From the IMG/VR virus record IMGVR_UViG_3300044846_003573: a stretch of 64,000 nucleotides of DNA; one strand, written 5' to 3'. This stretch comes from a virus (Duplodnaviria; Caudoviricetes). The position numbers and the translations under genes were made by a program. Of this stretch, positions 7,373 to 20,070 are shown in pieces (within the stretch, counting starts at the first letter, position 1; every line of letters starts with the position of its first letter). The notes beneath the pieces were generated by a model. The model saw only the letters and a list, made by a program, of their open reading frames with translations. It had not been told where the DNA came from and made no database searches.

Positions 7373-7720
7373 ATGAACCTACAAGAACACATAAAAAAAG
7401 TATTAAAAGAGGAGACGGGTGAAAGAACCAAACTTGAAAAGGTTATCACTAATGTTATCAACAGGTCATTAGATGGAAAAGAATTACCTGAAAACTTCCA
7501 TAGTGTTGTTGTTGATGTCTACGGAACAAAATACGGAGATGGTTGTATGATAACTTTATTGATGAAAAGGCCTTATAGTGAAGAAGAATCTGAAATGTTG
7601 TTTGATGTTAGTAGAGATGCTAAAAATTTAATTAAATCGTTCTTCAAAGAACATTTTCTTTATGGTATTAGTATTTCAACATCAACTATAGAAAATTACA
7701 TGAAGATGACAAGTGATTGA
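7373..7720 (+). CDS. MNLQE-leader protein, unknown function
   Basis: Starts MNLQEHIKKVLKEE. Confidence 0.7.
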   Translation: MNLQEHIKKVLKEETGERTKLEKVITNVINRSLDGKELPENFHSVVVDVYGTKYGDGCMITLLMKRPYSEEESEMLFDVSRDAKNLIKSFFKEHFLYGISISTSTIENYMKMTSD

Positions 7721-7731
7721 ATATTAATTAT

Positions 7732-8040
7732 ATGAACTTACAAGAACACATAAGAAGAGTATTAAAAGAGGAAACTGAAAAGTTTGATAAGATAGAACAT
7801 TTTATGAAAACTGCTAATACATTATTCAGCAAACTAAAATTTAAGGCTGTTAAACGTGTTGAGTTTGATTATGACGAAAGGATTGAAGGGTTTATTGTTA
7901 ATGTATTTTATGATAGACAATATGCGATAGATAATCCAAAAAATTTCAATCAAGTAAAACAAAACTTTATTAAAGAAATTGGTTCAATCATTACAAGGTT
8001 TTTCCCATTCAAATTTTATATTTATTTATATGACGACTAA
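7732..8040 (+). CDS. MNLQE-leader protein, unknown function
   Basis: Start moved to ATG at 7732: MNLQEHIRRVLKEE. Confidence 0.7.
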   Translation: MNLQEHIRRVLKEETEKFDKIEHFMKTANTLFSKLKFKAVKRVEFDYDERIEGFIVNVFYDRQYAIDNPKNFNQVKQNFIKEIGSIITRFFPFKFYIYLYDD

Positions 8041-8049
8041 TTATATATT

Positions 8050-8685
8050 ATGAACTTACACGAACACATAAAAAAAGTATTAAGAGAAGAGGTTAACAAG
8101 AAGTATTTGAAACCGAGTGAAAAATCCGAGAAATTTATTTTGGATAGATTGAATAGTATGGCTTCAGGTGCTGAAATATACCACGTTGAAAGTTATAAAA
8201 CAAGACACGATTTTGAGTTTTGTAAAAATGGAAAACAAATAATGAATCTCGCATTGTTCTTTGAAGAAACTGACGATAACACCCCAACGTCTGAAAGGAA
8301 ATTTGACTCTTCAACATTATCAGTACAAGAAGATTTTGTTGGTGGATTATTAGGGGCTTTTCCTGTTAGAAGAAATTATCTTTATTATATAATTGAAGAA
8401 TGGTTTGAAGATACTTTTTTAAGTAAAATCTCAAATATGATGGGTAGAAATGATATATCTGTTGAAGAATTATCATTTAATGATAGGTCATATACGTGTG
8501 TTCCACCAATTAATGAAGTACCTGAAGGAGTTACTCAAGACGAGATGATTAAGGTTATTATGAACAATACATTATGGCGTAAAAAAGATTTATTGGCGTT
8601 AGAAGAAAGAGAGCCTGGGTCTTTAGAATGGATGTATTTGAATAAACTTCGTAATAATGAGGTTAATAGATTAGATAATAGATAA
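8050..8685 (+). CDS. MNLQE-leader protein, unknown function
   Basis: Starts MNLHEHIKKVLREE. Confidence 0.7.
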   Translation: MNLHEHIKKVLREEVNKKYLKPSEKSEKFILDRLNSMASGAEIYHVESYKTRHDFEFCKNGKQIMNLALFFEETDDNTPTSERKFDSSTLSVQEDFVGGLLGAFPVRRNYLYYIIEEWFEDTFLSKISNMMGRNDISVEELSFNDRSYTCVPPINEVPEGVTQDEMIKVIMNNTLWRKKDLLALEEREPGSLEWMYLNKLRNNEVNRLDNR

Positions 8686-8686
8686 T

Positions 8687-8968
8687 ATGAACCTACAGGA
8701 ACAAATAAGAATAGTATTAAGGGAAGTAGTTAATGAATCCAAAGGTTGGAGTGATTCAAAGCAAAAATTAGAAAGAACTTTTAAATTCAAAGATTTTAAT
8801 GAATCAATGGGATTTGTTAATAAAGTTGCGAAGATTGCCGAATCACAAAATCATCATCCCGATATTAAAATAAATTACAACAAAGTAAAATTATCAATAA
8901 CTGACCACGAAAAGGGTGGGGTATCTGAAAAATGTCATAAATTGGTAAAGGCTATTGATAAACTCTAA
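8687..8968 (+). CDS. phhB: Pterin-4-alpha-carbinolamine dehydratase-like domain with MNLQE leader
   Basis: KLERTFKFKDFNESMGFVNKVAKIAESQNHHPDI...YNKV...TDHEKGGVSE. Confidence 0.8.
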   Translation: MNLQEQIRIVLREVVNESKGWSDSKQKLERTFKFKDFNESMGFVNKVAKIAESQNHHPDIKINYNKVKLSITDHEKGGVSEKCHKLVKAIDKL

Positions 8969-8972
8969 CAAT

Positions 8973-9455
8973 ATGAACCTACAAGAGAACATACAAAGGA
9001 TTAGAGAAATGATGGACATGCCTGATATGAATATATTAGATAAACCATTACAAATATGTAGTAAAAACCCAATGACAGGATATTACAGGGATGGGTATTG
9101 TAAGACGGATAGTTCAGATAAAGGAACACACACCGTTTGTAGTGAAGTAGATGATGAATTTCTTGAGTTTACAATGTCAAAAGGAAATGATTTATCTATG
9201 TTAAAAAGTGGGGACAGATGGTGTTTATGTGCAAATAGATGGAAAGAAGCGTATGATGCGGGTAAAGCACCAAAAGTAATTAAAAATGCGACAAACAAAA
9301 AAACATTAGATGTTATTGGTGATGATATTAAAGATGAAGAACTAACAGAATACGCAAGAACATTAAAAAACGCAAGACAACAGGGGGTTGGGTTAAGATT
9401 TCCGAAGTCAGCAATAAAAGCAAATCCAGCAAGGTTTAGACCTTACAACAGGTAA
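8973..9455 (+). CDS. DUF2237-family protein with MNLQE leader
   Basis: PLQICSKNPMTGYYRDGYC, GTHTVC, FLEF..SKGNDLS, GDRWCLCANRWKEA. Confidence 0.75.
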   Translation: MNLQENIQRIREMMDMPDMNILDKPLQICSKNPMTGYYRDGYCKTDSSDKGTHTVCSEVDDEFLEFTMSKGNDLSMLKSGDRWCLCANRWKEAYDAGKAPKVIKNATNKKTLDVIGDDIKDEELTEYARTLKNARQQGVGLRFPKSAIKANPARFRPYNR

Positions 9456-9456
9456 T

Positions 9457-9939
9457 ATGAAAAAAATAATAAGACTAACAGAATCACAACTTATTTCATT
9501 AGTTAAAAGAGTGATTAATGAAAGTGACCCGAAAGATGGGACTGGTAAAAAACCAAAAGGGTCTGACAGAAGATTATATACTGATGAAAACCCAAAGGAT
9601 ACTGTATCGGTTAAGTTCAGAACAAAAGAAGACATTGTTGATACTTTAAACAAAGAAAGTTTCAAATCTAAATCACACGCTCGTCAGTCTCAGATTATAA
9701 ATCTTATACATCAGAGATTACGAGTTGCTTTGGAAAGAGCAAAAGACCCTGAGGTTAAGAAAAGATTAAGAACTGCCTTTGAATATATTGAGTCCAAAAA
9801 AGAACAATCTAAAAAGAAAACTCAGGAGATGAAAGAAAGTGAATTAACTGAAAGATGTTGGAAAGGATATACTCAAAAAGGAATGAAAACTATGTTTGGT
9901 AAGAGATACCCTAACTGTGTTAAAAATACAAAGAAATGA
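9457..9939 (+). CDS. MKKxxRLTE-leader hypothetical phage protein
   Basis: MKKIIRLTESQLISLVKRVINE; RRLYTDENPKDTVSVKF; C-terminal CWKGY...YPNCVK. Confidence 0.7.
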   Translation: MKKIIRLTESQLISLVKRVINESDPKDGTGKKPKGSDRRLYTDENPKDTVSVKFRTKEDIVDTLNKESFKSKSHARQSQIINLIHQRLRVALERAKDPEVKKRLRTAFEYIESKKEQSKKKTQEMKESELTERCWKGYTQKGMKTMFGKRYPNCVKNTKK

Positions 9940-10367
9940 ACCTACAAGAAACAATAAGACGAATATTAAGGGAAGAACTATATTCTCCATCAGGAGATGA
10001 AATGACACCTAATAAGTTTGTGGTCCATAAATCAAATCCGGTATGGAGAAAGAATATACGACTTAATGGGTTGTTGACATCGGTAGGGGAATGTTATGAG
10101 AATCACGCAATGGATTTATATGGTGAATGGTATACGGAATGTCAACCAGCAATTTTTGCCACAGATTCATTGGATAAAGAAGATATGTTTAGTGATGGTT
10201 ATGATGATGACACATGGTTAATAGATACAGAATGTGCTGGGGTTACTTGGTATAGAGATGCACATTTCGAAGGTGGAGATTATGAACATCATATTGTGAC
10301 ATTTGAGAATATATCATCTAACTGTATAAAATTAATCAATAAAGGAACAGGTAAAAGTATTTGGTAA
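9936..10367 (+). CDS. MNLQE-leader protein, possible ADP-ribosyltransferase-like fold
   Basis: VVHKS...NIRLNGL...PAIFAT resembles the H-x-S/T...I...GL pattern of ART-fold proteins; weak. Confidence 0.4.
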   Translation: MNLQETIRRILREELYSPSGDEMTPNKFVVHKSNPVWRKNIRLNGLLTSVGECYENHAMDLYGEWYTECQPAIFATDSLDKEDMFSDGYDDDTWLIDTECAGVTWYRDAHFEGGDYEHHIVTFENISSNCIKLINKGTGKSIW

Positions 10368-10368
10368 G

Positions 10369-10989
10369 ATGAACCTACAGGAACACATAAGAAGAGTATT
10401 AAGGGAAGATAAAAAGAGTAAATTCATTATGGATATTGTTGATAAACATGGTGTTTATAAGACGGCAGAAATGATGGGTGTAACTATTACCTATTTATAC
10501 AAAATGTCTGATTTAAAAATTGATGAATTTGTTGCTAAAGAACTATTGGCTGAAAATATTGAAAATGGTAATTTACCTGCAAAATATAAAGGATTTGAAA
10601 TTGAAATAAGTAGTGATGATGTGTTTTATTGGGCAAGGCAGTTTAAATCGGGACACTATCCACCTAATGTATTAGAAAAAATATGGGTAATGGCAACACC
10701 TTTTTTCGCAACTGCTGATTATACACCCGTTGAACTTGATTGGTATGGATTAGAAGATGACTCAAAGAAACCTAATGTAGGAATATACGATACAAGTGGT
10801 GATGGTGATTATTTTGTGGAACTTACACATAATACACATAATGGTAATTATTTTTTTAATAGTGTTGATAATTTATTTGATTGGTATAATACGTTTTACT
10901 TACCAGAAGTGTATGAAATAATCTTGGATAGATTCATACCTGAAGTCCAAGAAGACACAGATGAAAGACTTAGAGATAAAAATACTTAA
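10369..10989 (+). CDS. MNLQE-leader protein, unknown function
   Basis: Starts MNLQEHIRRVLRED. Confidence 0.7.
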   Translation: MNLQEHIRRVLREDKKSKFIMDIVDKHGVYKTAEMMGVTITYLYKMSDLKIDEFVAKELLAENIENGNLPAKYKGFEIEISSDDVFYWARQFKSGHYPPNVLEKIWVMATPFFATADYTPVELDWYGLEDDSKKPNVGIYDTSGDGDYFVELTHNTHNGNYFFNSVDNLFDWYNTFYLPEVYEIILDRFIPEVQEDTDERLRDKNT

Positions 10990-11026: not shown

Positions 11027-11057
11027 AACCCCATTGAATTCGCTACTCAGTGGGGTT
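11027..11057. terminator. Bidirectional terminator overlapping the stop of the array gene
   Basis: aaccccattga-attcgctac-tcagtggggtt between convergent genes. Confidence 0.65.
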
Positions 11058-11777
11058 TTCATTTAAGACATCTTCCACCACTGGTGAATTACATGTACGT
11101 GATGTGTGTGTTGTAGTTACCTTATGATTTAGGACTTCTTTCACCTCACTGAGAACAATAGTGGGTCTACAATAGGTTTTAGACACCTTATGATTTAATA
11201 CCTTCTCCACCATATTCGGAAACGGCGGTGTATTGAATGATATTGTAGACACCTTATGATTTAATGCCTTTTCCACCAAAACCACTTGTTCCGCATTCGT
11301 CGTTTGTGTTGTAGATACCTTATGATTTAATACATCTTCCACCAAGAAACCTTCGTTACCGATATCGTTTTGCGTTGTGAATACCTTATAATTTAATACC
11401 TCTTCCATCTTCACATTTGCCTTCATGCCCATATAAACAGTTGTAGATACCTTATGATTTAATACCTCTTCCACCTCATCATACTTTTTCTCCGCACACA
11501 ATTCAGTTGTGGGCACCTTATGATTTAATACCTCTTCCACCCAAGAAGCGAGTATTGGTTCAAAATCTTTGGGTTCCAATGAGAAAATGGTAAAAAAACT
11601 ATTAAAGAAATAATATCTCCACCACAAACGACCACTCTTTTCAAATTCAAAATACCAATGCTCCTTTTCTCGGTCAATTAACCATATAGAATCTTTATAT
11701 GGGATTATCTCCACATTACCTAATTCTTTGTATAGTTGTTTGAATACAACCTGTTTTAATCTATCAGTTACTTTCAT
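11043..11777 (-). CDS. Array gene A: about 79-aa conserved N-domain plus 22-aa periodic array (VEEVLNHKVSTT + 10 variable aa)
   Basis: ORF track; N-domain shared with three paralogs. Confidence 0.85.
   Translation of the reverse strand: MKVTDRLKQVVFKQLYKELGNVEIIPYKDSIWLIDREKEHWYFEFEKSGRLWWRYYFFNSFFTIFSLEPKDFEPILASWVEEVLNHKVPTTELCAEKKYDEVEEVLNHKVSTTVYMGMKANVKMEEVLNYKVFTTQNDIGNEGFLVEDVLNHKVSTTQTTNAEQVVLVEKALNHKVSTISFNTPPFPNMVEKVLNHKVSKTYCRPTIVLSEVKEVLNHKVTTTHTSRTCNSPVVEDVLNENPTE
11061..11541 (-). CRISPR. CRISPR-like array A inside CDS: 7 full 36-bp repeats + 1 partial, 7 spacers of 30 bp (structure certain, CRISPR function unproven)
   Basis: Repeats start on + strand at 11110, 11176, 11242, 11308, 11374, 11440, 11506 (period 66); consensus GTTGTRGATACCTTATGATTTAATACCTCTTCCACC. 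Confidence 0.6.
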
Positions 11778-12507
11778 TTTCTTTTTTGTTGTTTAATGCC
11801 TCATCTACCGATTCCGCTCTTCTTGAGATGAATTCTTCCGTTTTGGATACCTTACGATTCAATATATCTTCCACCAAAAAGTTTCCTTCACCTACGTCAC
11901 GGACTGTTTTGGATACCTTAATATCCAATACCTCTTCCATCTCAAGATTACCTCTTGGGTGGAGATACTCCGTTGTAGATACCTTACGATTCAATACCTG
12001 TTCCACCAAATAGTTGTTAGATAAGGTCATGTTTTTTGTTGTGGATACCTTACTATTCAATACCTCTTCCATCATATCATTCGAAGTGAAACTGAATTGC
12101 TGAGTTGTGGATACCTTACTATTCAATACCTCTTCCACCCCTTGCTTAAAACTTCTGAAACGGCTTGCAGTTGTGGATACCTTACTATTCAATACCTCTT
12201 CCACCCCACCATCCATGACATATTGCGTGCTATCTGTTGTGGATACCTTACTATTCAATACCTCTTCCACCCAAGATGAAATAATTGGTTCAAAATCTTT
12301 GGACTCCAAAGAGAAAAAAGAAAAGAAAGATTTGAAATAATCATATCTCCAATATAAACATCCACTTTCAGTTAGTTGGAAATACCAGTATTTTTCTTCT
12401 CTATCAATAAACCAATAACTGTATTGGGTAGGGATAATTTCCACATTACCTAATTCTTTGTATAGTTGTTTGAATATGAGTTGTTTTAATCTATCCGTTA
12501 CTTTCAT
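11764..12507 (-). CDS. Array gene B
   Basis: ORF track; same architecture, repeat variants NSK/NRK. Confidence 0.85.
   Translation of the reverse strand: MKVTDRLKQLIFKQLYKELGNVEIIPTQYSYWFIDREEKYWYFQLTESGCLYWRYDYFKSFFSFFSLESKDFEPIISSWVEEVLNSKVSTTDSTQYVMDGGVEEVLNSKVSTTASRFRSFKQGVEEVLNSKVSTTQQFSFTSNDMMEEVLNSKVSTTKNMTLSNNYLVEQVLNRKVSTTEYLHPRGNLEMEEVLDIKVSKTVRDVGEGNFLVEDILNRKVSKTEEFISRRAESVDEALNNKKENESN
11791..12271 (-). CRISPR. CRISPR-like array B inside CDS: 7 full repeats + 1 partial, 7 spacers of 30 bp
   Basis: Repeats start at 11840, 11906, 11972, 12038, 12104, 12170, 12236; variant GTTGTGGATACCTTACTATTCAATACCTCTTCCACC. Confidence 0.6.
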
Positions 12508-13195
12508 TTTCTTTTTTATTGTTTAATGCCTTTTTCACCCAAACACTATTTAATACTTCTTCCACTGACCTTTCGGAAAACAAGGAATTATTTTTAGTTG
12601 TAGATACCCTACTATCTAATACTTTTTTTACCTTTCTTTTTTGGGCGGCGTCTACTTCAAAAGTTTCGGATACCTTATGATTTAAGACCTCTTCCACCCA
12701 CTTTGCTGTTACAGTAGTTTTCTCTTCAGTTGTGGATACCTTATGATTTAATACCTCTTCCACCAGAGGAAATTCGTCAATTACAAACATTTTTGTTGTG
12801 GATACCTTATGATTTAAGACCTCTTCCACCTGAAGTAAGCGGTGGGCCAATGTATTACCTGTTGTGGATACCTTATGATTTAATACCTCTTCCACCTTAT
12901 TGTCTCGGCGTACGGAAGGTATACGAGTTGTGGATACCTTATGATTTAAGACCTCTTCCACCCAAGAAGATATTATTGGTTCAAACTCACTCTGTTCCAA
13001 AGAGAAAATGCTGAAAAACGATGGGAAGAATGAGTATCTCCAAAATAAACATCCCTCTTTAGACAACTGAAAATACCAATAACAATTTTCCCTATCAATG
13101 AACCATACAGAGTCTTTATATGGGATTATCTCCGCATTACCTAACTCTTTGTATAGGTGTTTGAATATGAGTTGTTTTAGCTTATCTGTAACCAT
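12491..13195 (-). CDS. Array gene C
   Basis: ORF track, start moved to ATG at 13195; TATCTTTG just upstream. Confidence 0.85.
   Translation of the reverse strand: MVTDKLKQLIFKHLYKELGNAEIIPYKDSVWFIDRENCYWYFQLSKEGCLFWRYSFFPSFFSIFSLEQSEFEPIISSWVEEVLNHKVSTTRIPSVRRDNKVEEVLNHKVSTTGNTLAHRLLQVEEVLNHKVSTTKMFVIDEFPLVEEVLNHKVSTTEEKTTVTAKWVEEVLNHKVSETFEVDAAQKRKVKKVLDSRVSTTKNNSLFSERSVEEVLNSVWVKKALNNKKENESNG
12545..12962 (-). CRISPR. CRISPR-like array C inside CDS: 6 full repeats + partial, 6 spacers of 30 bp
   Basis: Repeats start at 12597, 12663, 12729, 12795, 12861, 12927. Confidence 0.6.
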
Positions 13196-13231
13196 AAGCA
13201 CAAAGATACAAAAAAACTTTGAAAATACAAA

Positions 13232-13570
13232 TTAATTTTCAGACGGTAATTTTAACGACCATTGGGAGCTCATTATCTTGTTGGACATTTGACCCTCCAA
13301 ATTCAGTTTTTTCTTAACCCATTGTCCAATAATTCTGGTAGATTGATAACTGTTAAGAGAAAAGAAGGAAGAAATTGCTTCAATTAAACCTTTATAGATA
13401 AAACACAATTCATTATTGGAATGATTACCACCATATTGAATTTGAGCAGACTCATCTTTAGGATATGAAAAATATATACTGGCACCAGTTTTAGTTATAT
13501 TGAAATCCTGACTATCAAGATACCTGAATATTACTTTATCTAATTGTGATTCTGTGATTAAATATTTCAT
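13232..13570 (-). CDS. MKYLITE-family protein
   Basis: MKYLITESQLDKVIFRYLD...SSFFSL...IIGQWV. Confidence 0.75.
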   Translation of the reverse strand: MKYLITESQLDKVIFRYLDSQDFNITKTGASIYFSYPKDESAQIQYGGNHSNNELCFIYKGLIEAISSFFSLNSYQSTRIIGQWVKKKLNLEGQMSNKIMSSQWSLKLPSEN

Positions 13571-13938
13571 GATAATGTTATACTTCTAACTGATTTAACT
13601 TCATAGTCAGGAAAGAACTCATTAAATACATCTGACATAATGAATTTGCCGTGAACTAACCAAATAGGATGAGGAAACGCTGTACCATATACATCGTCAA
13701 AGTTCCTATTATAGTATAAATCACCACTTGGTTTATTATAAACCATTACGGCGTTTTGGTCACTATCAAATAAGTTAAGTCTTAAATCATTTTCAGAATG
13801 TGAATCAACCAAATTTTCAAAATAACGAATCATTTTAGGTTTGAGTCTATTGTATTGTTCCGTATATTCAGAATCTCTCCAAGTTCTTTCAAGTTCGGAT
13901 ATTAAATTATATTGTGACTCGGTAATAATATACTTCAT
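13567..13938 (-). CDS. MKYLITE-leader protein
   Basis: MKYIITESQYNLISE. Confidence 0.7.
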   Translation of the reverse strand: MKYIITESQYNLISELERTWRDSEYTEQYNRLKPKMIRYFENLVDSHSENDLRLNLFDSDQNAVMVYNKPSGDLYYNRNFDDVYGTAFPHPIWLVHGKFIMSDVFNEFFPDYEVKSVRSITLS

Positions 13939-13944
13939 GTAATA

Positions 13945-13964
13945 ATAAATATAATTATATTTAT
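13945..13964. promoter_or_regulatory. Perfect 20-bp palindrome with back-to-back TATTTAT motifs between divergent genes
   Basis: ataaatataattatatttat between ATGs at 13938(-) and 13971(+). Confidence 0.6.
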
Positions 13965-13970
13965 AATATT

Positions 13971-14294
13971 ATGAACCTACAAGAGAATATAAAAAAAGTA
14001 TTAAGGGAAGAAACAGATTTTTCACCACAGTTCAAAAGAAGACTGAATAGATTTAAATCGTTTGTATGGGATAATAATGTAACTAATTATCCATGTGATT
14101 TTGAAAACTTTGAAGCGTTCATGCGTGGTATACAACATGAAATTATGGACATGATTACAGATGGTTCTGATACCGATGGCCCGTTGTCTGATTGGTTAAC
14201 ATATAAAGATGGTGTTACGTATGTAGAAAACTACATGAGGGATGACTTAGAAAAGTTTTATAATAAGCAATGTGTTGATGTCTTATACGTATAA
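13971..14294 (+). CDS. MNLQE-leader protein
   Basis: MNLQENIKKVLREE. Confidence 0.7.
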   Translation: MNLQENIKKVLREETDFSPQFKRRLNRFKSFVWDNNVTNYPCDFENFEAFMRGIQHEIMDMITDGSDTDGPLSDWLTYKDGVTYVENYMRDDLEKFYNKQCVDVLYV

Positions 14295-14639
14295 ATCAAG
14301 AAATTGTTCAATTGATATTCCAAGACCTGAGATACCAAAAAAGTTCATAAAGTCGGATTCATCCCAAGTATCACATCCGTTATTAATAATCCAAGATTGA
14401 CCTGTGGCATAATTCATCTGATAAAGTAAATCATAACTATTATCTAATTTTATCAGATACATCGGACCATAATTGTCCATATTAAATCTTCTTTGCATAC
14501 TATTATAACTAATACACTCATCAAAAATTATCATTACATCAGTTAAATCTGGGTCAAACTCAACACGACCTGTCAGGTCAATATTAAACTTGTCTTTAAT
14601 GAATGTTTTTAATTTAGATTCGGTGATAAGATATTTCAT
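14283..14639 (-). CDS. MKYLITE-leader protein
   Basis: MKYLITESKL. Confidence 0.7.
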   Translation of the reverse strand: MKYLITESKLKTFIKDKFNIDLTGRVEFDPDLTDVMIIFDECISYNSMQRRFNMDNYGPMYLIKLDNSYDLLYQMNYATGQSWIINNGCDTWDESDFMNFFGISGLGISIEQFLDLYV

Positions 14640-14655
14640 TATATATAAATATTAG

Positions 14656-15066
14656 TTAACAATTTCCTGTATTATAAACCTCAATATTGTGAACACTAAT
14701 TAGACCGCCACCGAACTGATATAAAGCCTTAGAAATAACATCTCTATACATACTTCTTGTACCTTCCTCATAGATATACCTTCCCACATTTGCAGGAGCT
14801 GGCTTAGGTATGTAGACGACCAAATTCATAGAGTCACGAGTGGGGATGATATTATAACTACAATACATCAAGACGGTTGAGATATCATTTTCAAGTATAG
14901 TTTTTGTTAGAAAGATAATATCTTCTCTTGTTCCTTTAAGACCAATCTCATCAATAATATCTTCAGGTTCCTTATCAGTCATTTTACACAGAGTACGCAT
15001 ACCAAATTTCTCTAATAAGGGTTTAAGAGTTTTGTTATATTGATTCTCAGTGATTAAGTATTTCAT
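14656..15066 (-). CDS. MKYLITE-leader protein
   Basis: MKYLITENQY. Confidence 0.7.
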   Translation of the reverse strand: MKYLITENQYNKTLKPLLEKFGMRTLCKMTDKEPEDIIDEIGLKGTREDIIFLTKTILENDISTVLMYCSYNIIPTRDSMNLVVYIPKPAPANVGRYIYEEGTRSMYRDVISKALYQFGGGLISVHNIEVYNTGNC

Positions 15067-15078
15067 TATATGTAAATA

Positions 15079-15411
15079 TTAGTTATAGTGAACCTTCAAA
15101 ACTTCGGACTTGCTAAAGACAACCCATTGTGAGTAACTGACTTCCATTTGTAGGGTATTTCCAACCCAATTACCAATAATCTTTTTAGAGCGGACTTCAT
15201 CTAAAGAAAATAATACAGAGATGTCCTCAATTAAATTTAAGTTTATCTGACAAACACCATTTTTTTTATTATATCTAATTTGGGCATGTTCATCTTCTTC
15301 TGAATTAACAAAGAATATATTACTACTTGTTTCAATCTGAATAAAGTTCTGGCTATCCAAATATCTAAAGATTACTCTGTCTAATTGTGATTCGGTGATA
15401 AGGTATTTCAT
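15079..15411 (-). CDS. MKYLITE-family protein (WVxNTLQM subfamily)
   Basis: MKYLITESQLDRVIFRYLD...IGNWVGNTLQMEVSYS. Confidence 0.75.
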   Translation of the reverse strand: MKYLITESQLDRVIFRYLDSQNFIQIETSSNIFFVNSEEDEHAQIRYNKKNGVCQINLNLIEDISVLFSLDEVRSKKIIGNWVGNTLQMEVSYSQWVVFSKSEVLKVHYN

Positions 15412-15414
15412 ATA

Positions 15415-15735
15415 TTAATAATCAAAAAACATAACATCAACATCAAATGCTTTACTAAACCAATCAGAAATGAATTTACCTGATTGCTCTTTATCAAGTG
15501 GATACATGGATGAAAACTTATCTAAAAAAGATTCATCAATATATAATCTACCATCGCTGTGGTCAAACTCCATTAAAATAAAAAAATCAGGGCCTCTTTC
15601 AGGGCTATATATATTAATGAAATCACTATCTGATGTTCTATCATAATCTAATAATTTATTTAACTCAGATATCATTAAATTATTTATTACCGATTTGACT
15701 TTATCTAATTGTGATTCGGTGATGAGGTATTTCAT
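15415..15735 (-). CDS. MKYLITE-leader protein
   Basis: Start moved to ATG at 15735. Confidence 0.7.
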   Translation of the reverse strand: MKYLITESQLDKVKSVINNLMISELNKLLDYDRTSDSDFINIYSPERGPDFFILMEFDHSDGRLYIDESFLDKFSSMYPLDKEQSGKFISDWFSKAFDVDVMFFDY

Positions 15736-15768
15736 ATAAAATATAAATATAATCATATTTATAATAAT

Positions 15769-16098
15769 ATGAACTTAAAAGAATCTATAAAAAGAATACT
15801 GAGGGAAGAACTATCGGCGAGAATTAAAAGAAGACTTTCTAATGATGAAATGGAAAATGAGTTTCTTGAATCTTTTGAAGGCGCTTATCGTCTTACAAAA
15901 GACAGAAAGGTTTTAAGTTCACATTTTTTAGATGAGTTAGTCTACACAACAATAACCTTTATGATGGATGGGGTACATTGGAGATTTGTTAGTACATTAC
16001 CTGAAGATGAATTTTGGTATGATGATATACACCAAGGATTAGAAAATCATTATAGAAAAAGAATTACACGGATGTATAATGAAAGAAAAGGTTTTTAA
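15769..16098 (+). CDS. MNLQE-leader protein
   Basis: MNLKESIKRILREE. Confidence 0.7.
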   Translation: MNLKESIKRILREELSARIKRRLSNDEMENEFLESFEGAYRLTKDRKVLSSHFLDELVYTTITFMMDGVHWRFVSTLPEDEFWYDDIHQGLENHYRKRITRMYNERKGF

Positions 16099-16101
16099 AG
16101 A

Positions 16102-16380
16102 TTAATTAGAGTTTAAGAATTTGAGTAACGCTCTAATATATTCGGAACGTTTATTATAGAATTCAGTATCATCATCATATTGAAAAAACTCTTCACCTCT
16201 ATGTCTATCAACGAACTTTTCAATTAATTCATAAGCGTAGTCATCTCTGTCGGCGGAATCTTCAAAATCTTCTTCATCCATAATGTAGTTATAATCATCC
16301 CTAAGTGATTCCAATTCATCCATTGTAAACCTCCTAAGTAAAAATGCTTCTAACTGTGATTCTGTAATTAAGTATTTCAT
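16102..16380 (-). CDS. MKYLITE-leader acidic protein
   Basis: MKYLITESQLE; D/E-rich. Confidence 0.7.
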   Translation of the reverse strand: MKYLITESQLEAFLLRRFTMDELESLRDDYNYIMDEEDFEDSADRDDYAYELIEKFVDRHRGEEFFQYDDDTEFYNKRSEYIRALLKFLNSN

Positions 16381-16733
16381 TATTCGTTAACCATTAATCT
16401 GTAATCATATGGACCATCCCAAACCGTACTATCACTAATACCCAAAGTATTATTAACCCATGCTTTGATTATATCCAAACAATCCGATTTATCAATGGAG
16501 AAGAAGGTAGATAATTTATCAGTCAAATCAGAATTTACAAACACCCAATTCCTAACTTCACCAAAAGCGTTATTAGTATAAACACTAATCTGTGATTCCC
16601 TATCTGACTCACTGTTTAAGAAATATATATAATTGCTGAATTTCTTCTTGTTGTCATACATCACAAAGTCCTGAATATCAAGATACTTAAAGATTACTTT
16701 CTCTAATTTTGATTCGGTGATAAGGTATTTCAT
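16380..16733 (-). CDS. MKYLITE-family protein
   Basis: MKYLITESKLEKVIFKYLD...FFSID...WVNNTL. Confidence 0.75.
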   Translation of the reverse strand: MKYLITESKLEKVIFKYLDIQDFVMYDNKKKFSNYIYFLNSESDRESQISVYTNNAFGEVRNWVFVNSDLTDKLSTFFSIDKSDCLDIIKAWVNNTLGISDSTVWDGPYDYRLMVNE

Positions 16734-17068
16734 TATATATAAATATTCTTAGGTATTTTCAACCAAGACTGGGTCATCAAACCAGCCTTGGTGGTATTTG
16801 TAACTTTCATTTGTAGGGTATTCCCAACCCACCTACCAATAGCCGATTCAGAATCAGATTTGTCCAAAGAAAATAACGATGAGATGTTCTTGATTAATTC
16901 GGGACTTATTACGCAACCAAAATTACCATTTTTGATTTGAGCATATTCATCATCTTCAGAGTTAACGAAGTATACTAAAAGACCTATTTTAATTTGAATA
17001 AAATCTTGATGGTTCAAGTAAATAAAGATTGCTCTATCTAATTGTGATTCGGTGATAAGGTATTTCAT
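16733..17068 (-). CDS. MKYLITE-family protein (WVxNTLQM subfamily)
   Basis: ...AIGRWVGNTLQMKVTNT + 10 aa + LKIP. Confidence 0.75.
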   Translation of the reverse strand: MKYLITESQLDRAIFIYLNHQDFIQIKIGLLVYFVNSEDDEYAQIKNGNFGCVISPELIKNISSLFSLDKSDSESAIGRWVGNTLQMKVTNTTKAGLMTQSWLKIPKNIYI

Positions 17069-17080
17069 TATATATAAGTA

Positions 17081-17395
17081 TTAGTTAGGTGCTCTCAATC
17101 GTTCAGTGGGTAGGGTGTAAGAAATCTTTATTTGGAGAGTATCACTAACCCAACTACCAATAACTTCTTTTGAATCTAAATAATGTAAAGAAAATAAAGA
17201 AGAAATCTCATCAATTAATTTAGTGGATATATAACACCATTCATTAGTTATACTAGATTTAATTTGAGCGTATTCGTCACCTTCTGAATTAATAAAGTAT
17301 ACACCACCATTTTTCTCAATCTGAATAAAATCCTGATTATCCAAGTACTTAAAGATTACCTGATTTAATTTAGATTCTGTTATAAGGTATTTCAT
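17081..17395 (-). CDS. MKYLITE-family protein
   Basis: Start moved to ATG at 17395; ...VIGSWVSDTLQIKISYT. Confidence 0.75.
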   Translation of the reverse strand: MKYLITESKLNQVIFKYLDNQDFIQIEKNGGVYFINSEGDEYAQIKSSITNEWCYISTKLIDEISSLFSLHYLDSKEVIGSWVSDTLQIKISYTLPTERLRAPN

Positions 17396-17502
17396 TATAT
17401 ATAAATACAAAGATACACATAAAACTGAACAATACATATTGGGTTAATAATTTAATAAGAATATGATAATATGGTTTGAGGTTGTTTTTAATACTTATTA
17501 TT

Positions 17503-18210: not shown

Positions 18211-18923
18211 ATAATTGGAAAACAATAATCATGAGTGATTTACACTTAGGAGCAAGACAATCACAGACAGATAAGATAATAAGTTTCTTGGATAATAACA
18301 CAACAGAAAAACTAATACTGAACGGTGATATTATAGATGGTTGGGCTCTTAAAGGTAATGGTAAATGGACGAAGGATTGTACCAAGATATTCAGGAAGTT
18401 CATGAAGATGTCTGAGAAGAATACAAAGGTAATTTATATAAGAGGAAACCACGATGACTTCCTAAAAGATTTTATTCCATTTAAATTAAACAACATTAGG
18501 ATTGTAAGAAAGTATATACATAATGGTATTGACGGAAGAAAGTATTTTTGTTTTCACGGGGATGTATTGGATTTCGTTATAATGGAAGCGAGGTGGTTAG
18601 CAGTAATCGGTGGATGGTCATATGATATTGTCATTAAGTTTAATACTCTATATAACAAAATAAGAAAGTGGTTTAACTTACCATATCATTCATTGGCAAA
18701 CACAATAAAACAATCAGTAAAAGGGGCAATTAACTTTGTATCTGATTTTGAACAAAACGCGAAAGGTCTAACAAAACAAAAGGGATATGATGTTGCGGTG
18801 TGTGGACATATTCATCACCCGAAGATAGAGAATGACTATATGAACTCAGGAGACTTTTGTGAGAACTCTACATGTCTTGTAGAAGATTATAACGGGGAGT
18901 GGAAGATTATTACTATTAGTTAG
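18207..18923 (+). CDS. Calcineurin-like metallophosphoesterase, UDP-2,3-diacylglucosamine hydrolase (LpxH)-like
   Basis: SDLHLG, LNGDIIDGW, RGNHDD, FHGD, CGHIHHP, YMNSGDF. Confidence 0.85.
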   Translation: MNNWKTIIMSDLHLGARQSQTDKIISFLDNNTTEKLILNGDIIDGWALKGNGKWTKDCTKIFRKFMKMSEKNTKVIYIRGNHDDFLKDFIPFKLNNIRIVRKYIHNGIDGRKYFCFHGDVLDFVIMEARWLAVIGGWSYDIVIKFNTLYNKIRKWFNLPYHSLANTIKQSVKGAINFVSDFEQNAKGLTKQKGYDVAVCGHIHHPKIENDYMNSGDFCENSTCLVEDYNGEWKIITIS

Positions 18924-19245
18924 GTATTTTAAACAAATTGTTCACATCGTGAAAGACCAAACGGGTATAAGTAACCCTCATTTGTAGAGTATTTTCAACC
19001 CATCTACCGATAACTTCCTTAGAATCATATATGTCCAAAGAAAAGAAAGAAGAAATTTCGTAAATTAATCCATGGCGTATATAACACCAACCATCGTTTC
19101 TATCATATCTGATTTGGGCATATTTATCATCTTCCGAATTAACAAAGTATATTGCGTTTCCTCTTTTAATCTGAATAAAGTTCTTAATATCCAAATATCT
19201 AAAGATTACTCTGTCTAATTGTGATTCTGTGATAAGATATTTCAT
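18916..19245 (-). CDS. MKYLITE-family protein (WVxNTLQM subfamily)
   Basis: ...VIGRWVENTLQMRVTYT + 10 aa + FKIPN. Confidence 0.75.
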   Translation of the reverse strand: MKYLITESQLDRVIFRYLDIKNFIQIKRGNAIYFVNSEDDKYAQIRYDRNDGWCYIRHGLIYEISSFFSLDIYDSKEVIGRWVENTLQMRVTYTRLVFHDVNNLFKIPN

Positions 19246-19275: not shown

Positions 19276-20070
19276 TTATTGATTTAAGACCTGTTCCATC
19301 ACATAGTTCATAACAGACATTTCTACATCCGTTGTACATTCCTTATGATTTAATACCTCTTCCACCCCTCTTGTGAAGGGTCCAGAATATGCTTCCAATG
19401 TTGATACCTTATGATTTAATACCTCTTCTACCTCAATTTTTCCAACGTAATCAAGTGAATCGGTTGTAGATACCTTATGATTTAATACTTCTTCCACCAA
19501 TGAATGTTCGGGGTATTTGAGAATGGTAGTTGTAGACACCTTAACATTATGACTTAATACATCTTCCACCCGTGTTCGGATATGAGCATTGTGAGTATTA
19601 GTTGTGGATACCTTACTATTCAATACCTCTTCCACCTTCCAAGGAACACGAACTTTAACATCGCACGTTGTGGATACCTTATGATTTAATACATCTTCCA
19701 CCATCATGCTTTCAACACCGCTACCTGTCACGGTTGTAGATACCTTATGATTTAAGACCTCTTCCACCTTGTCCGTTGTAATTGGAAGTGGAATGAAGGT
19801 TGTGGATACCTTATGATTTAAGACCTCTTCCACCCAAGAAGATAGAACAGGACAAAAATCATCCAAACTCATGGAGAATATTTGAAAAAACGAATTAAAA
19901 AAATCGTATCTCCACCATAAAGTACCTGACTCATCAAGTTCAAAGTACCAGTATTTATTATCCCTATTAATAAACCATATAGACCCATTATAAGGAATAA
20001 TCTCACAATCACCCAACTCTTTATATAGGTGTTTAAAAATAAGTTGTTTTAATCTATCTGTAATAACCAT
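19276..20070 (-). CDS. Array gene D
   Basis: ORF track; same N-domain and 22-aa array; TATATTTG at 20075-20082 upstream. Confidence 0.85.
   Translation of the reverse strand: MVITDRLKQLIFKHLYKELGDCEIIPYNGSIWFINRDNKYWYFELDESGTLWWRYDFFNSFFQIFSMSLDDFCPVLSSWVEEVLNHKVSTTFIPLPITTDKVEEVLNHKVSTTVTGSGVESMMVEDVLNHKVSTTCDVKVRVPWKVEEVLNSKVSTTNTHNAHIRTRVEDVLSHNVKVSTTTILKYPEHSLVEEVLNHKVSTTDSLDYVGKIEVEEVLNHKVSTLEAYSGPFTRGVEEVLNHKECTTDVEMSVMNYVMEQVLNQ
19281..19834 (-). CRISPR. CRISPR-like array D inside CDS: 8 full repeats (one with a 6-bp insertion) + partial, 8 spacers of 30 bp
   Basis: Repeats start at 19331, 19397, 19463, 19529 (42 bp), 19601, 19667, 19733, 19799. Confidence 0.6.

What the first reader, a model, noticed from the sequence alone, without database searches (positions are those of the whole stretch)
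11764..12962. Polar decay of repeats places the growing end next to the N-terminal domain
Seen: in arrays B, C and D the repeats nearest the N-domain are near-identical and those toward the stop decay (B: NSK x4, then NRK, DIK, NRK, then a half repeat; C ends in KVLDSR and fragments; D ends in STL, ECTT and a half repeat). Array A is degenerate throughout. Variants occur in adjacent blocks. Established: CRISPR adaptation duplicates the leader-proximal repeat and gives this pattern. Inference: the coding sequence for EPIxxSW (ttggttcaaa...cccaaga on the plus strand) acts as the leader, and new modules enter between the domain and older modules.
Basis: partly seen in the sequence, partly recalled or inferred. 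Interest (0 to 1): 0.7.

Follow-up and report, generated by a model that had tools for sequence, protein, structure and literature searches.

The report
Polar cassette arrays in phage genes
Four genes of an uncultured lake jumbo phage end in translated arrays that look like CRISPR (36-base repeat, 30-base unique insert); the repeats do decay from the protein's N-terminal domain towards the stop, but related phages swap inserts at both ends and inside the arrays, so growth only at the N-domain junction by CRISPR enzymes is not shown.

Summary
In arrays B, C, A and, more weakly, D, repeat mismatches rise from the N-domain towards the stop. This is so in 13 of 13 independent lineages, even without the stop-bearing unit.

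The arrays are real coding sequence. None of 131 unique inserts has an in-frame stop, and the inserts show purifying selection. Yet the units are set at the DNA level: a 36-nt repeat plus a 30-nt insert, one base out of codon phase.

The CRISPR-type reading is only partly supported.
- For a polar process: the N-proximal slot holds the most private inserts (40% against 17-24%). It takes twice its share of one-step changes (15 of 32). Its inserts are the most GC-rich.
- Against growth at that end alone: phages with identical N-domains also differ inside and at the C-terminal end. In 71 arrays the slot behind a conserved anchor holds 10 unrelated inserts, almost never stacked. Two contigs 99.97% identical differ only in slot 6 of 7, with the changed tract starting inside the upstream repeat.

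Repeats are mosaics, which shows recombination within them. I found no cas1, protospacer or host repeat.

The source of new 30-nt inserts is unexplained. An earlier follow-up in this scan reached a similar cassette-shuffling reading for array D.

The parts
12491..13201 (-). Gene C: N-domain (12963-13201) plus array of 6 full units and fragments (12491-12962)
   Evidence: ORF and unit parse. 864 homologs. The N-domain is modelled with pLDDT about 80, the array about 27.
11764..12507 (-). Gene B: N-domain (12272-12507) plus 7 full units and a half unit; its ATG lies 16 nt upstream of gene C's stop
   Evidence: Orthologs in L001, L002, L004-L006 and L017.
11043..11777 (-). Gene A: same build, 7 full units and a terminal VEDVLNENPTE*; its start overlaps gene B's end
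19276..20070 (-). Gene D: fourth paralog, 8 units; one unit has a 6-nt in-frame insertion
12927..12962 (-). First repeat (R1) of array C in the DNA register. Its first base is the third base of the invariant Trp codon. R1 forms the end of the N-domain's last helix.
   Evidence: Register, repeat positions, invariant W78, helix 68-90.
12236..12271 (-). First repeat (R1) of array B. Further copies start every 66 nt at 12170, 12104, 12038, 11972, 11906 and 11840.
   Evidence: (3-6 mismatches to the consensus).
12597..12698 (-). Anchor of the C family: degenerate repeat VKKVLDSRVSTT and, upstream of it, the conserved insert FEVDAAQKRK
   Evidence: The anchor insert is present in 71 of 160 distinct arrays. 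The slots on both sides of it vary.
18916..19245 (-). One of about seven neighbouring genes of about 110 aa (13232-17437 and 18916-19245) homologous to the N-domain, including the first repeat peptide (WVENTLQMRVTYT against WVEEVLNHKVSTT)
   Evidence: BLASTP E 5e-8. The matching DNA is 12-17 of 36 identical to the repeat.

Best explanation
These are translated cassette arrays, and homologous recombination inside the 36-nt repeat moves their cassettes. Each gene encodes a small folded domain whose last helix ends in the first repeat. That is followed by 22-residue units of 12 constant and 10 unique residues.

Shown here: the constant 36 nt is kept at the nucleotide level. Cassettes are exchanged, deleted and replaced by crossovers within it, between paralogs and between co-circulating phages.

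Inferred: the first repeat is fixed by the fold and by the invariant Trp codon, and acts as the best-preserved copy. Next to it lies 240 bp of conserved N-domain DNA that can serve as a long homology arm. Homogenisation and exchange are therefore most frequent at the N-proximal units. Distal repeats drift, lose recombination partners and keep their inserts.

This would give polar decay and a young N-proximal end without leader-directed integration. A second, weaker hot spot sits at the C-terminal slot, next to the conserved 3' flank.

This account does not explain where new 30-nt inserts come from.
For: Coding:
- None of 131 unique inserts has an in-frame stop, while 28-55% have stops in each of the other five frames.
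- Substitutions within insert variants are 50% synonymous where 22% is expected, so dN/dS is about 0.3.
- The three DNA versions of DSTQYVMDGG differ only at synonymous sites.
- The N-domain plus R1 is homologous to single-copy neighbours.

Recombination:
- Repeats are mosaics. Their 5' part travels with the upstream insert (C12 follows GNTL in three different contexts). Their 3' part travels with the downstream insert (the SET variant precedes FEVD).
- L004's VEQVLNRK|VSKT is a chimera of window repeats B5 and B6, with the insert between them lost.
- L001 and L002 have 2 differences in 6065 nt. A changed tract then runs from position 12 of repeat 6 through the insert and ends at the next repeat. 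Both inserts occur in other proteins.
- The same inserts turn up in different paralogs and slots: CDVKVRVPWK is in D slot 3 and in C-like P0043 slot 1. P0026 carries TFGGGGHSK twice.
- 10 alternative inserts occupy the single slot behind the FEVD anchor.

Polarity.

No adaptation genes: and no cas or recombinase gene beside the arrays.
Against: Recombination only redistributes cassettes, and several features point to a DNA-level writing process.
- 65% of 276 insert clusters are singletons.
- Inserts are either the same or unrelated: Hamming distance 1-6 or 12-29, with nothing between.
- Inserts are compositionally foreign. GC is 42% against 31% for the window. GC at four-fold sites is 33% against 13% in window genes. 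Stop-free random 30-mers of window composition would have 32% GC.
- Unit borders are sharp and one base out of codon phase. The wobble base before each repeat is G in 91% of units, while the Thr wobble base that ends the repeat is free.
- Repeat codons are kept at synonymous sites in 82% of cases against 48% in the N-domain, across lineages only 42-65% identical in protein.

The gradient of recombination with distance from the N-domain is inferred, not measured.
Confidence: 0.5

Rival explanations
1. A ruler-type integrase, most simply the Cas1-Cas2 of a Bacteroidota host, inserts new 30-bp pieces at the first repeat and duplicates it. Only in-frame, stop-free inserts survive. Recombination then deletes units and moves them about.
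For: - Exact 36+30 geometry with borders out of codon phase, and the -1 G that in R1 is the obligatory third base of Trp.
- Unrelated, GC-rich inserts.
- An excess of private inserts and of one-step changes in slot 1.
- A GC gradient that fits ageing away from the junction.
- Nested N-terminal series.
- The repeat resembles a verified Cas13b direct repeat and a CRISPR-like array in a Bacteroidaceae MAG, which has the same length and termini and GGTA at positions 25-28.
Against: - No cas1 in five related phage contigs.
- No protospacer in related genomes, the arrays' own genomes, IMG/VR or JGI metagenomes, though the power of these searches is low.
- Ten alternative inserts in the C-terminal slot cannot come from leader-end addition plus deletion.
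- The repeat peptide is an ancestral part of the protein family, not captured DNA.
- R1 and R2 of window array C differ at position 12, unlike a fresh duplication.
- The MAG array has no cas gene on its contig and the MAG has no cas1.
Confidence: 0.2
2. There is no polar process at all. The gradient would reflect selection only. R1 is part of the fold, nearby units must stay canonical for function, and the last units are free to drift or are shaped by the overlapping start region of the next gene.
For: - R1 lies in a confidently modelled helix.
- The last units of C and B overlap the next gene's start and share ALNNKKENESN.
- Degenerate repeats still encode similar peptides.
Against: - The gradient remains when the last unit is left out.
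- It is seen at synonymous sites, which protein selection does not explain.
- It comes with gradients in insert novelty and GC.
- D and A are followed by no overlapping paralog, yet both decay.
Confidence: 0.12
3. An RNA-level role. The mRNA would carry look-alikes of type VI-B direct repeats in the sense orientation. It would be cut or bound by the host's Cas13b as a decoy or a hijacked guide array. Translation would be secondary.
For: - Nucleotide-level conservation of the repeat across distant lineages.
- 36/30 geometry with the repeat on the mRNA strand.
- Similarity to the PspCas13b repeat, p 0.002-0.02 against shuffles for four lineage variants.
- Phage RNA mimics of CRISPR repeats are known (PMC10651486, abstract).
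Against: - The frame is kept open in every array, and inserts evolve under purifying selection on the peptide.
- No Rfam CRISPR repeat family matches.
- The repeat folds weakly (-5.4 kcal/mol, z -1.3).
- The host and its CRISPR type are unknown.
- The Cas13b repeat was picked from memory as a comparator, so the p-values are optimistic.
Confidence: 0.08

Closest known systems
CRISPR arrays of Bacteroidota with 36-nt repeats and 30-nt spacers (type II-C and VI-B; geometry from my own knowledge, PspCas13b repeat verified in 10.1101/2023.03.10.532141)
   Same: Exact 36+30 period, mutually unrelated inserts, and decay of repeats at the end far from the transcription start. The inserts nearest the start vary most, and the distal ones are shared among strains. 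The repeat also shares GTGGA(A) at its 5' end and (GGTA)..ACAAC at its 3' end.
   Different: - The array is translated in one frame as the C-terminal half of a protein, and inserts are under purifying selection.
- No cas genes, protospacers or leader were found.
- The distal slot is replaced, not frozen.
- The repeat peptide is an ancestral part of the protein family.
Hypervariable repeat proteins whose units are rearranged between variants, such as TALEs (survey: PMC10392669)
   Same: Tandem units with a constant part and a local hypervariable part. Units are shuffled between variants by recombination. The survey calls such families 'exceptionally rare'.
   Different: - Ten consecutive residues vary, not one or two.
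- The variable parts are unrelated rather than drawn from a few types.
- The array is predicted to be disordered.
- The unit borders are set in DNA, out of codon phase.
False CRISPRs: tandem repeats in protein-coding genes that CRISPR finders report (PMC5294841)
   Same: A repeat-spacer look inside an ORF, with no cas genes nearby.
   Different: That paper defines false CRISPRs by their lack of spacer diversity. Here there are 276 insert clusters in 160 arrays, and arrays turn over between phages with identical flanks.
Virus-borne mini-CRISPR arrays and RNA anti-CRISPRs (PMC6858448, PMC10651486)
   Same: Phage-borne copies of CRISPR-like repeats without cas genes.
   Different: Those are short, non-coding and match the host's repeat. 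Here there are 4-9 units, all translated, and the host repeat is unknown.

Membership tests
CRISPR array | Direct repeats of fixed length separated by unique spacers of fixed length | tested here: met
   A 36-nt conserved block and a 30-nt variable block. Nearly all inserts are exactly 30 nt.
CRISPR array | Non-coding: transcribed and processed, not translated | tested here: not met
   None of 131 inserts has an in-frame stop. dN/dS is about 0.3. The array is fused to a conserved domain in 864 homologs.
CRISPR array | cas1-cas2 (or other cas genes) in the same genome | tested here: not met
   No Cas1 over the cut-off in five related phage contigs, two of them rated complete. None among window ORFs near the arrays. 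The host genome is unknown, so supply in trans is untested.
CRISPR array | Spacers derive from foreign DNA (protospacers) | tested here: inconclusive
   No match outside arrays in the loci, in five related genomes, in two arrays' own genomes, or for slot-1 inserts in IMG/VR and JGI metagenomes. Only a few inserts were scanned, and by exact match.
CRISPR array | New units enter only at the leader-proximal repeat | tested here: not met
   Slot 1 is enriched (15 of 32 events) but not exclusive: 11 events are internal and 6 are in the last slot. 10 alternative inserts occupy the last slot. L001 and L002 differ in slot 6 of 7.
CRISPR array | Repeat belongs to a described CRISPR repeat family | tested here: inconclusive
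   No Rfam match at the gathering score or at E<=10. Similarity to the PspCas13b repeat has p 0.002-0.02, and to one MAG array p<0.002, but the MAG array was found with a pattern that forced 13 positions.
Hypervariable repeat protein with unit shuffling | Tandem peptide units with a constant part and a localised hypervariable part | tested here: met
   12 constant plus 10 variable residues.
Hypervariable repeat protein with unit shuffling | Units rearranged between variants by recombination in the constant part | tested here: met
   Mosaic and chimeric repeats, a replacement tract with both ends in repeats, and shared cassettes in other slots and paralogs.
RNA anti-CRISPR / viral mini-array | Repeat near-identical to the CRISPR repeat of the host | not testable with these tools
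   The host is unknown. A scan of 185,579 species genomes for the repeat's termini at 36/30 spacing gave one CRISPR-like array, in a roe-deer Bacteroidaceae MAG, 23 of 36 identical.

The most novel reading that the evidence does not exclude
The arrays would be written as well as shuffled. A ruler-type integrase, such as the host's Cas1-Cas2 acting on a repeat that resembles Bacteroidota type VI-B or II-C repeats, would add captured 30-bp DNA at the junction between the N-domain and the first repeat. A phage gene would then turn acquired DNA into new peptide cassettes. Its mRNA might also double as a Cas13b guide or decoy array.
Probability: 0.15. Interest if true: 0.92.

Novelty: new variant of a known kind. 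Interest (0 to 1): 0.6.

Why it matters
Polar ageing is taken as a hallmark of CRISPR adaptation. Here it appears in a translated array of a phage with no cas genes, next to direct evidence for recombination. Polarity alone therefore cannot be read as adaptation.

The family is widespread in lake jumbo phages, with 864 homologs. Its arrays turn over while flanking DNA stays identical. The inserts are compositionally foreign and their origin is unexplained.

If an integrase writes them, this would be a new way to make protein diversity. If not, it is a clean natural case of cassette shuffling driven by a DNA repeat that is conserved beyond what its coding role requires.

Tried and rejected
- **Cultured phages:** no DNA or protein match in INPHARED.
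- **Whole genome:** none is held for the window.
- **Protein families:** Pfam and PHROGs gave nothing for the array proteins or the small paralogs.
- **Structure:** fold searches gave only generic helical matches with Z <= 6.4, or uncharacterised phage relatives.
- **Repeat copies:** no extra repeat copy or anti-repeat in the window at up to 10 mismatches.
- **Local protospacer hit:** a 21/22 match to L010 was a low-complexity A/T run.
- **Bacteroidota sample:** a pattern G.TGGAA..GGTA...ACAAC in 400 sampled genomes found only single chance hits besides the MAG.
- **Cas13b in the MAG:** my guessed NCBIfam accessions turned out to be Cas13a and Cas13d, with no hits, so Cas13b was never searched.
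- **Cas13b repeats from memory:** two of three were not found in the paper library and are not used.
- **Laid contigs of four runs:** they break at the identical repeats (k-mer assembly), so minor alternative inserts could not be assigned to a slot. RNA-library contigs cover parts of B and C but do not prove transcription.
- **Internal 'substitutions':** cases such as DGYD/EYGF can also come from differential deletion, so I do not count them against polar growth. The last-slot alternatives cannot be explained that way.
- **Prohead-protease sites:** The third residue is E in only about 80-90% of units.

Full report
**What is there**

The window is 30% GC. It carries many small genes, a tmRNA, a tRNA and phage-type genes. 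No whole genome is held for it.

Four paralogous genes lie on the minus strand:
- C at 12491-13201
- B at 11764-12507
- A at 11043-11777
- D at 19276-20070

C, B and A are in tandem, and each stop overlaps the next start. Each gene encodes a 79-80-residue N-domain followed by units of 66 nt.

The family has 864 homologs in metagenomes. These include an 'uncultured Caudovirales phage' protein and contigs of up to 294 kb. I fetched 46 IMG/VR loci. At least 16 lake-water metagenome runs from 2020-2024 hold 78-91% of the stretch's sampled words.

**The observation**

Mismatches to the consensus rise with distance from the N-domain in all four arrays: rho is 0.85 for C, 0.89 for B, 0.95 for A and 0.71 for D. 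Array A is therefore graded, not uniformly degenerate.

The gradient is general:
- 34 of 37 distinct arrays show it.
- 13 of 13 lineage clusters show it with the stop-bearing unit left out (p 1.2e-4).
- Mean mismatches per repeat are 2.3 in the N-proximal half and 6.2 in the C-terminal half.

**Coding, but defined in DNA**

The arrays are translated sequence.
- None of 131 unique inserts has an in-frame stop. In each of the other frames, 28-55% of inserts have one.
- Changes within insert variants are 50% synonymous where 22% is expected.
- The three DNA versions of DSTQYVMDGG differ only synonymously.
- The N-domain, including the first repeat peptide, is homologous to neighbouring single-domain genes: WVEEVLNHKVSTT aligns with WVENTLQMRVTYT, E 5e-8. 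The repeat peptide is thus native to the family, not captured DNA.
- AlphaFold models the N-domain and the first repeat as one fold (pLDDT about 80) and the rest as disordered.

The unit is nevertheless set at the nucleotide level.
- The conserved block runs from the wobble base of the preceding codon (G in 91% of units) to the second base of the last Thr codon. That Thr wobble base is free.
- This makes 36 nt plus 30 nt, one base out of codon phase.
- In the first repeat that G is the third base of the invariant Trp codon.
- Repeat codons are identical at synonymous sites in 82% of cases against 48% in the N-domain, across lineages whose N-domains are 42-65% identical.
- Divergent lineages have their own repeat variants but keep GGTGGA..TAAAT..GGTA..CAAC and the 36+30 period.

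**The inserts**

- Pairwise distances are bimodal: 1-6 differences or 12-29.
- There are 276 clusters in 160 arrays, and 65% are singletons. Order is conserved in 237 of 243 co-occurring pairs.
- Insert GC is 42% against 31% for the window. GC at four-fold sites is 33% against 13% in window genes. Stop-free random 30-mers of window composition would have 32% GC.
- Amino-acid composition is nearer to random codons than to the proteome.

**Tests of polarity in strain comparisons**

For a polar process:
- Private inserts make up 40% of slot 1 and 17-24% of other slots.
- In a spanning forest of one-step differences, 15 of 32 fall in slot 1 where 7.7 are expected (p 0.004).
- Insert GC falls from N to C: rho -0.23, p 0.02 on 100 clusters. 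Slot-1-only inserts have 45% GC against 41% for the rest.
- Nested N-terminal series exist.

Against growth at that end only:
- 11 of the 32 events are internal and 6 are in the last slot.
- Phages with 0-1 differences in 237 nt of N-domain differ at the N end, inside the array and at the C end.
- In 71 arrays with the FEVD/FEIN anchor, 63 have exactly one insert behind it. That slot holds 10 unrelated inserts, which deletion from a long ancestor cannot explain.
- L001 and L002 differ at 2 of 6065 nt. A tract then runs from position 12 of repeat 6 of array A through the insert to the next repeat. Both inserts occur elsewhere in the pool.

**Recombination is shown directly**

- Repeats are mosaics. 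The 5' part goes with the upstream insert and the 3' part with the downstream one.
- L004 carries a chimera of window repeats B5 and B6, with the insert between them lost.
- The same inserts appear in different paralogs and slots. Six pairs occur in both orders, and one array holds an insert twice.

**Tests of a CRISPR link**

Negative results:
- No Cas1 in five related contigs.
- No cas or recombinase gene near the arrays.
- No Rfam CRISPR repeat family.
- No extra repeat or anti-repeat in the window.
- No protospacers.

Suggestive results:
- A scan of 185,579 species genomes for the repeat's termini at 36/30 spacing found one CRISPR-like array, at a contig end of a Bacteroidaceae MAG.
- It has three 36-nt repeats and 29-30-nt inserts. 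It is 23 of 36 identical to the phage repeat, including an unforced GGTA at positions 25-28.
- Its contig carries no cas gene and the MAG has no cas1.
- The PspCas13b direct repeat, verified in 10.1101/2023.03.10.532141, is more like four phage repeat variants than shuffles are, p 0.002-0.02. I chose this comparator from memory, so this is a lead and not a test.

**Reading**

Recombination inside the repeat is demonstrated and accounts for how cassettes move. The polarity is real, but it is a bias and not a rule.

I infer that it arises because the first repeat is held by the fold and the Trp codon and adjoins a long homology arm. Distal repeats drift and lose recombination partners.

What makes new, GC-rich, exactly 30-nt inserts is not explained. 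A ruler-type integrase remains possible, at about 15-20%.

The earlier scan note e1-5322550 on array D reached the same cassette-shuffling view. I tested that independently here.

Noticed in passing
window 11043-13201 and 19276-20070 (all repeats): The first codon of each repeat is GTG in 91% of units, ATG in 8% and TTG in 1%. It is never another Val codon with C at the first base. All three are start codons, so internal initiation at each unit is conceivable.
   Followed up: no
L053:16858-17024 (MAG Bacteroidaceae RGIG3754, contig end): An orphan CRISPR-like array of three 36-nt repeats (GGTGGAAGCGGATGAGAAAAAGAGGGTAGTTACAAC) plus a decayed fourth. It shares its termini and GGTA at positions 25-28 with the phage coding repeat. 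There is no cas gene on the contig and no cas1 in the MAG.
   Followed up: partly
window 12491-12507 and 11764-11777: Each array gene's last codons overlap the next gene's ATG by 14-17 nt. The shared tail ALNNKKENESN is the translated upstream region of the next paralog, so the tandem copies were duplicated together with this junction.
   Followed up: partly
window 13232-17437, 18916-19245; plus strand 7717-10989, 13971-14294, 15769-16098: Two large families of small paralogs surround the arrays. The MKYLITESQL.. proteins on the minus strand are homologous to the array N-domain. The MNLQE.IRRVLREE.. proteins are on the plus strand. The region looks like a nursery of multigene families.
   Followed up: partly
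window 12700-12793 in run X16; joints in runs X1, X2, X16: Lake samples hold alternative inserts at 7-25% of the main depth. In one sample an alternative is deeper than the window's own version, so arrays are polymorphic within one population.
   Followed up: partly
window 12927-13151 and 12243-12351 (run X17, RNA library): Metatranscriptome contigs cover the N-domain, first repeat, insert and second repeat of a C-like gene, and the B junction. This is a weak hint of transcription, since DNA carry-over is not excluded.
   Followed up: no
window 12729-12962: Position 12 of the repeat alternates C, A, C, A, C along array C. In other phages the C allele follows the insert GNTLAHRLLQ whatever comes after it.
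   Followed up: yes
L040-L044, L020, L046: Distant relatives carry arrays with other repeat peptides (VDEVLNNEVETT, VESVLNGGVTTT, VEDTLNCKVLST). In L042-L044 the protein is longer, with a further C-terminal region of about 120 residues behind the array.
   Followed up: no
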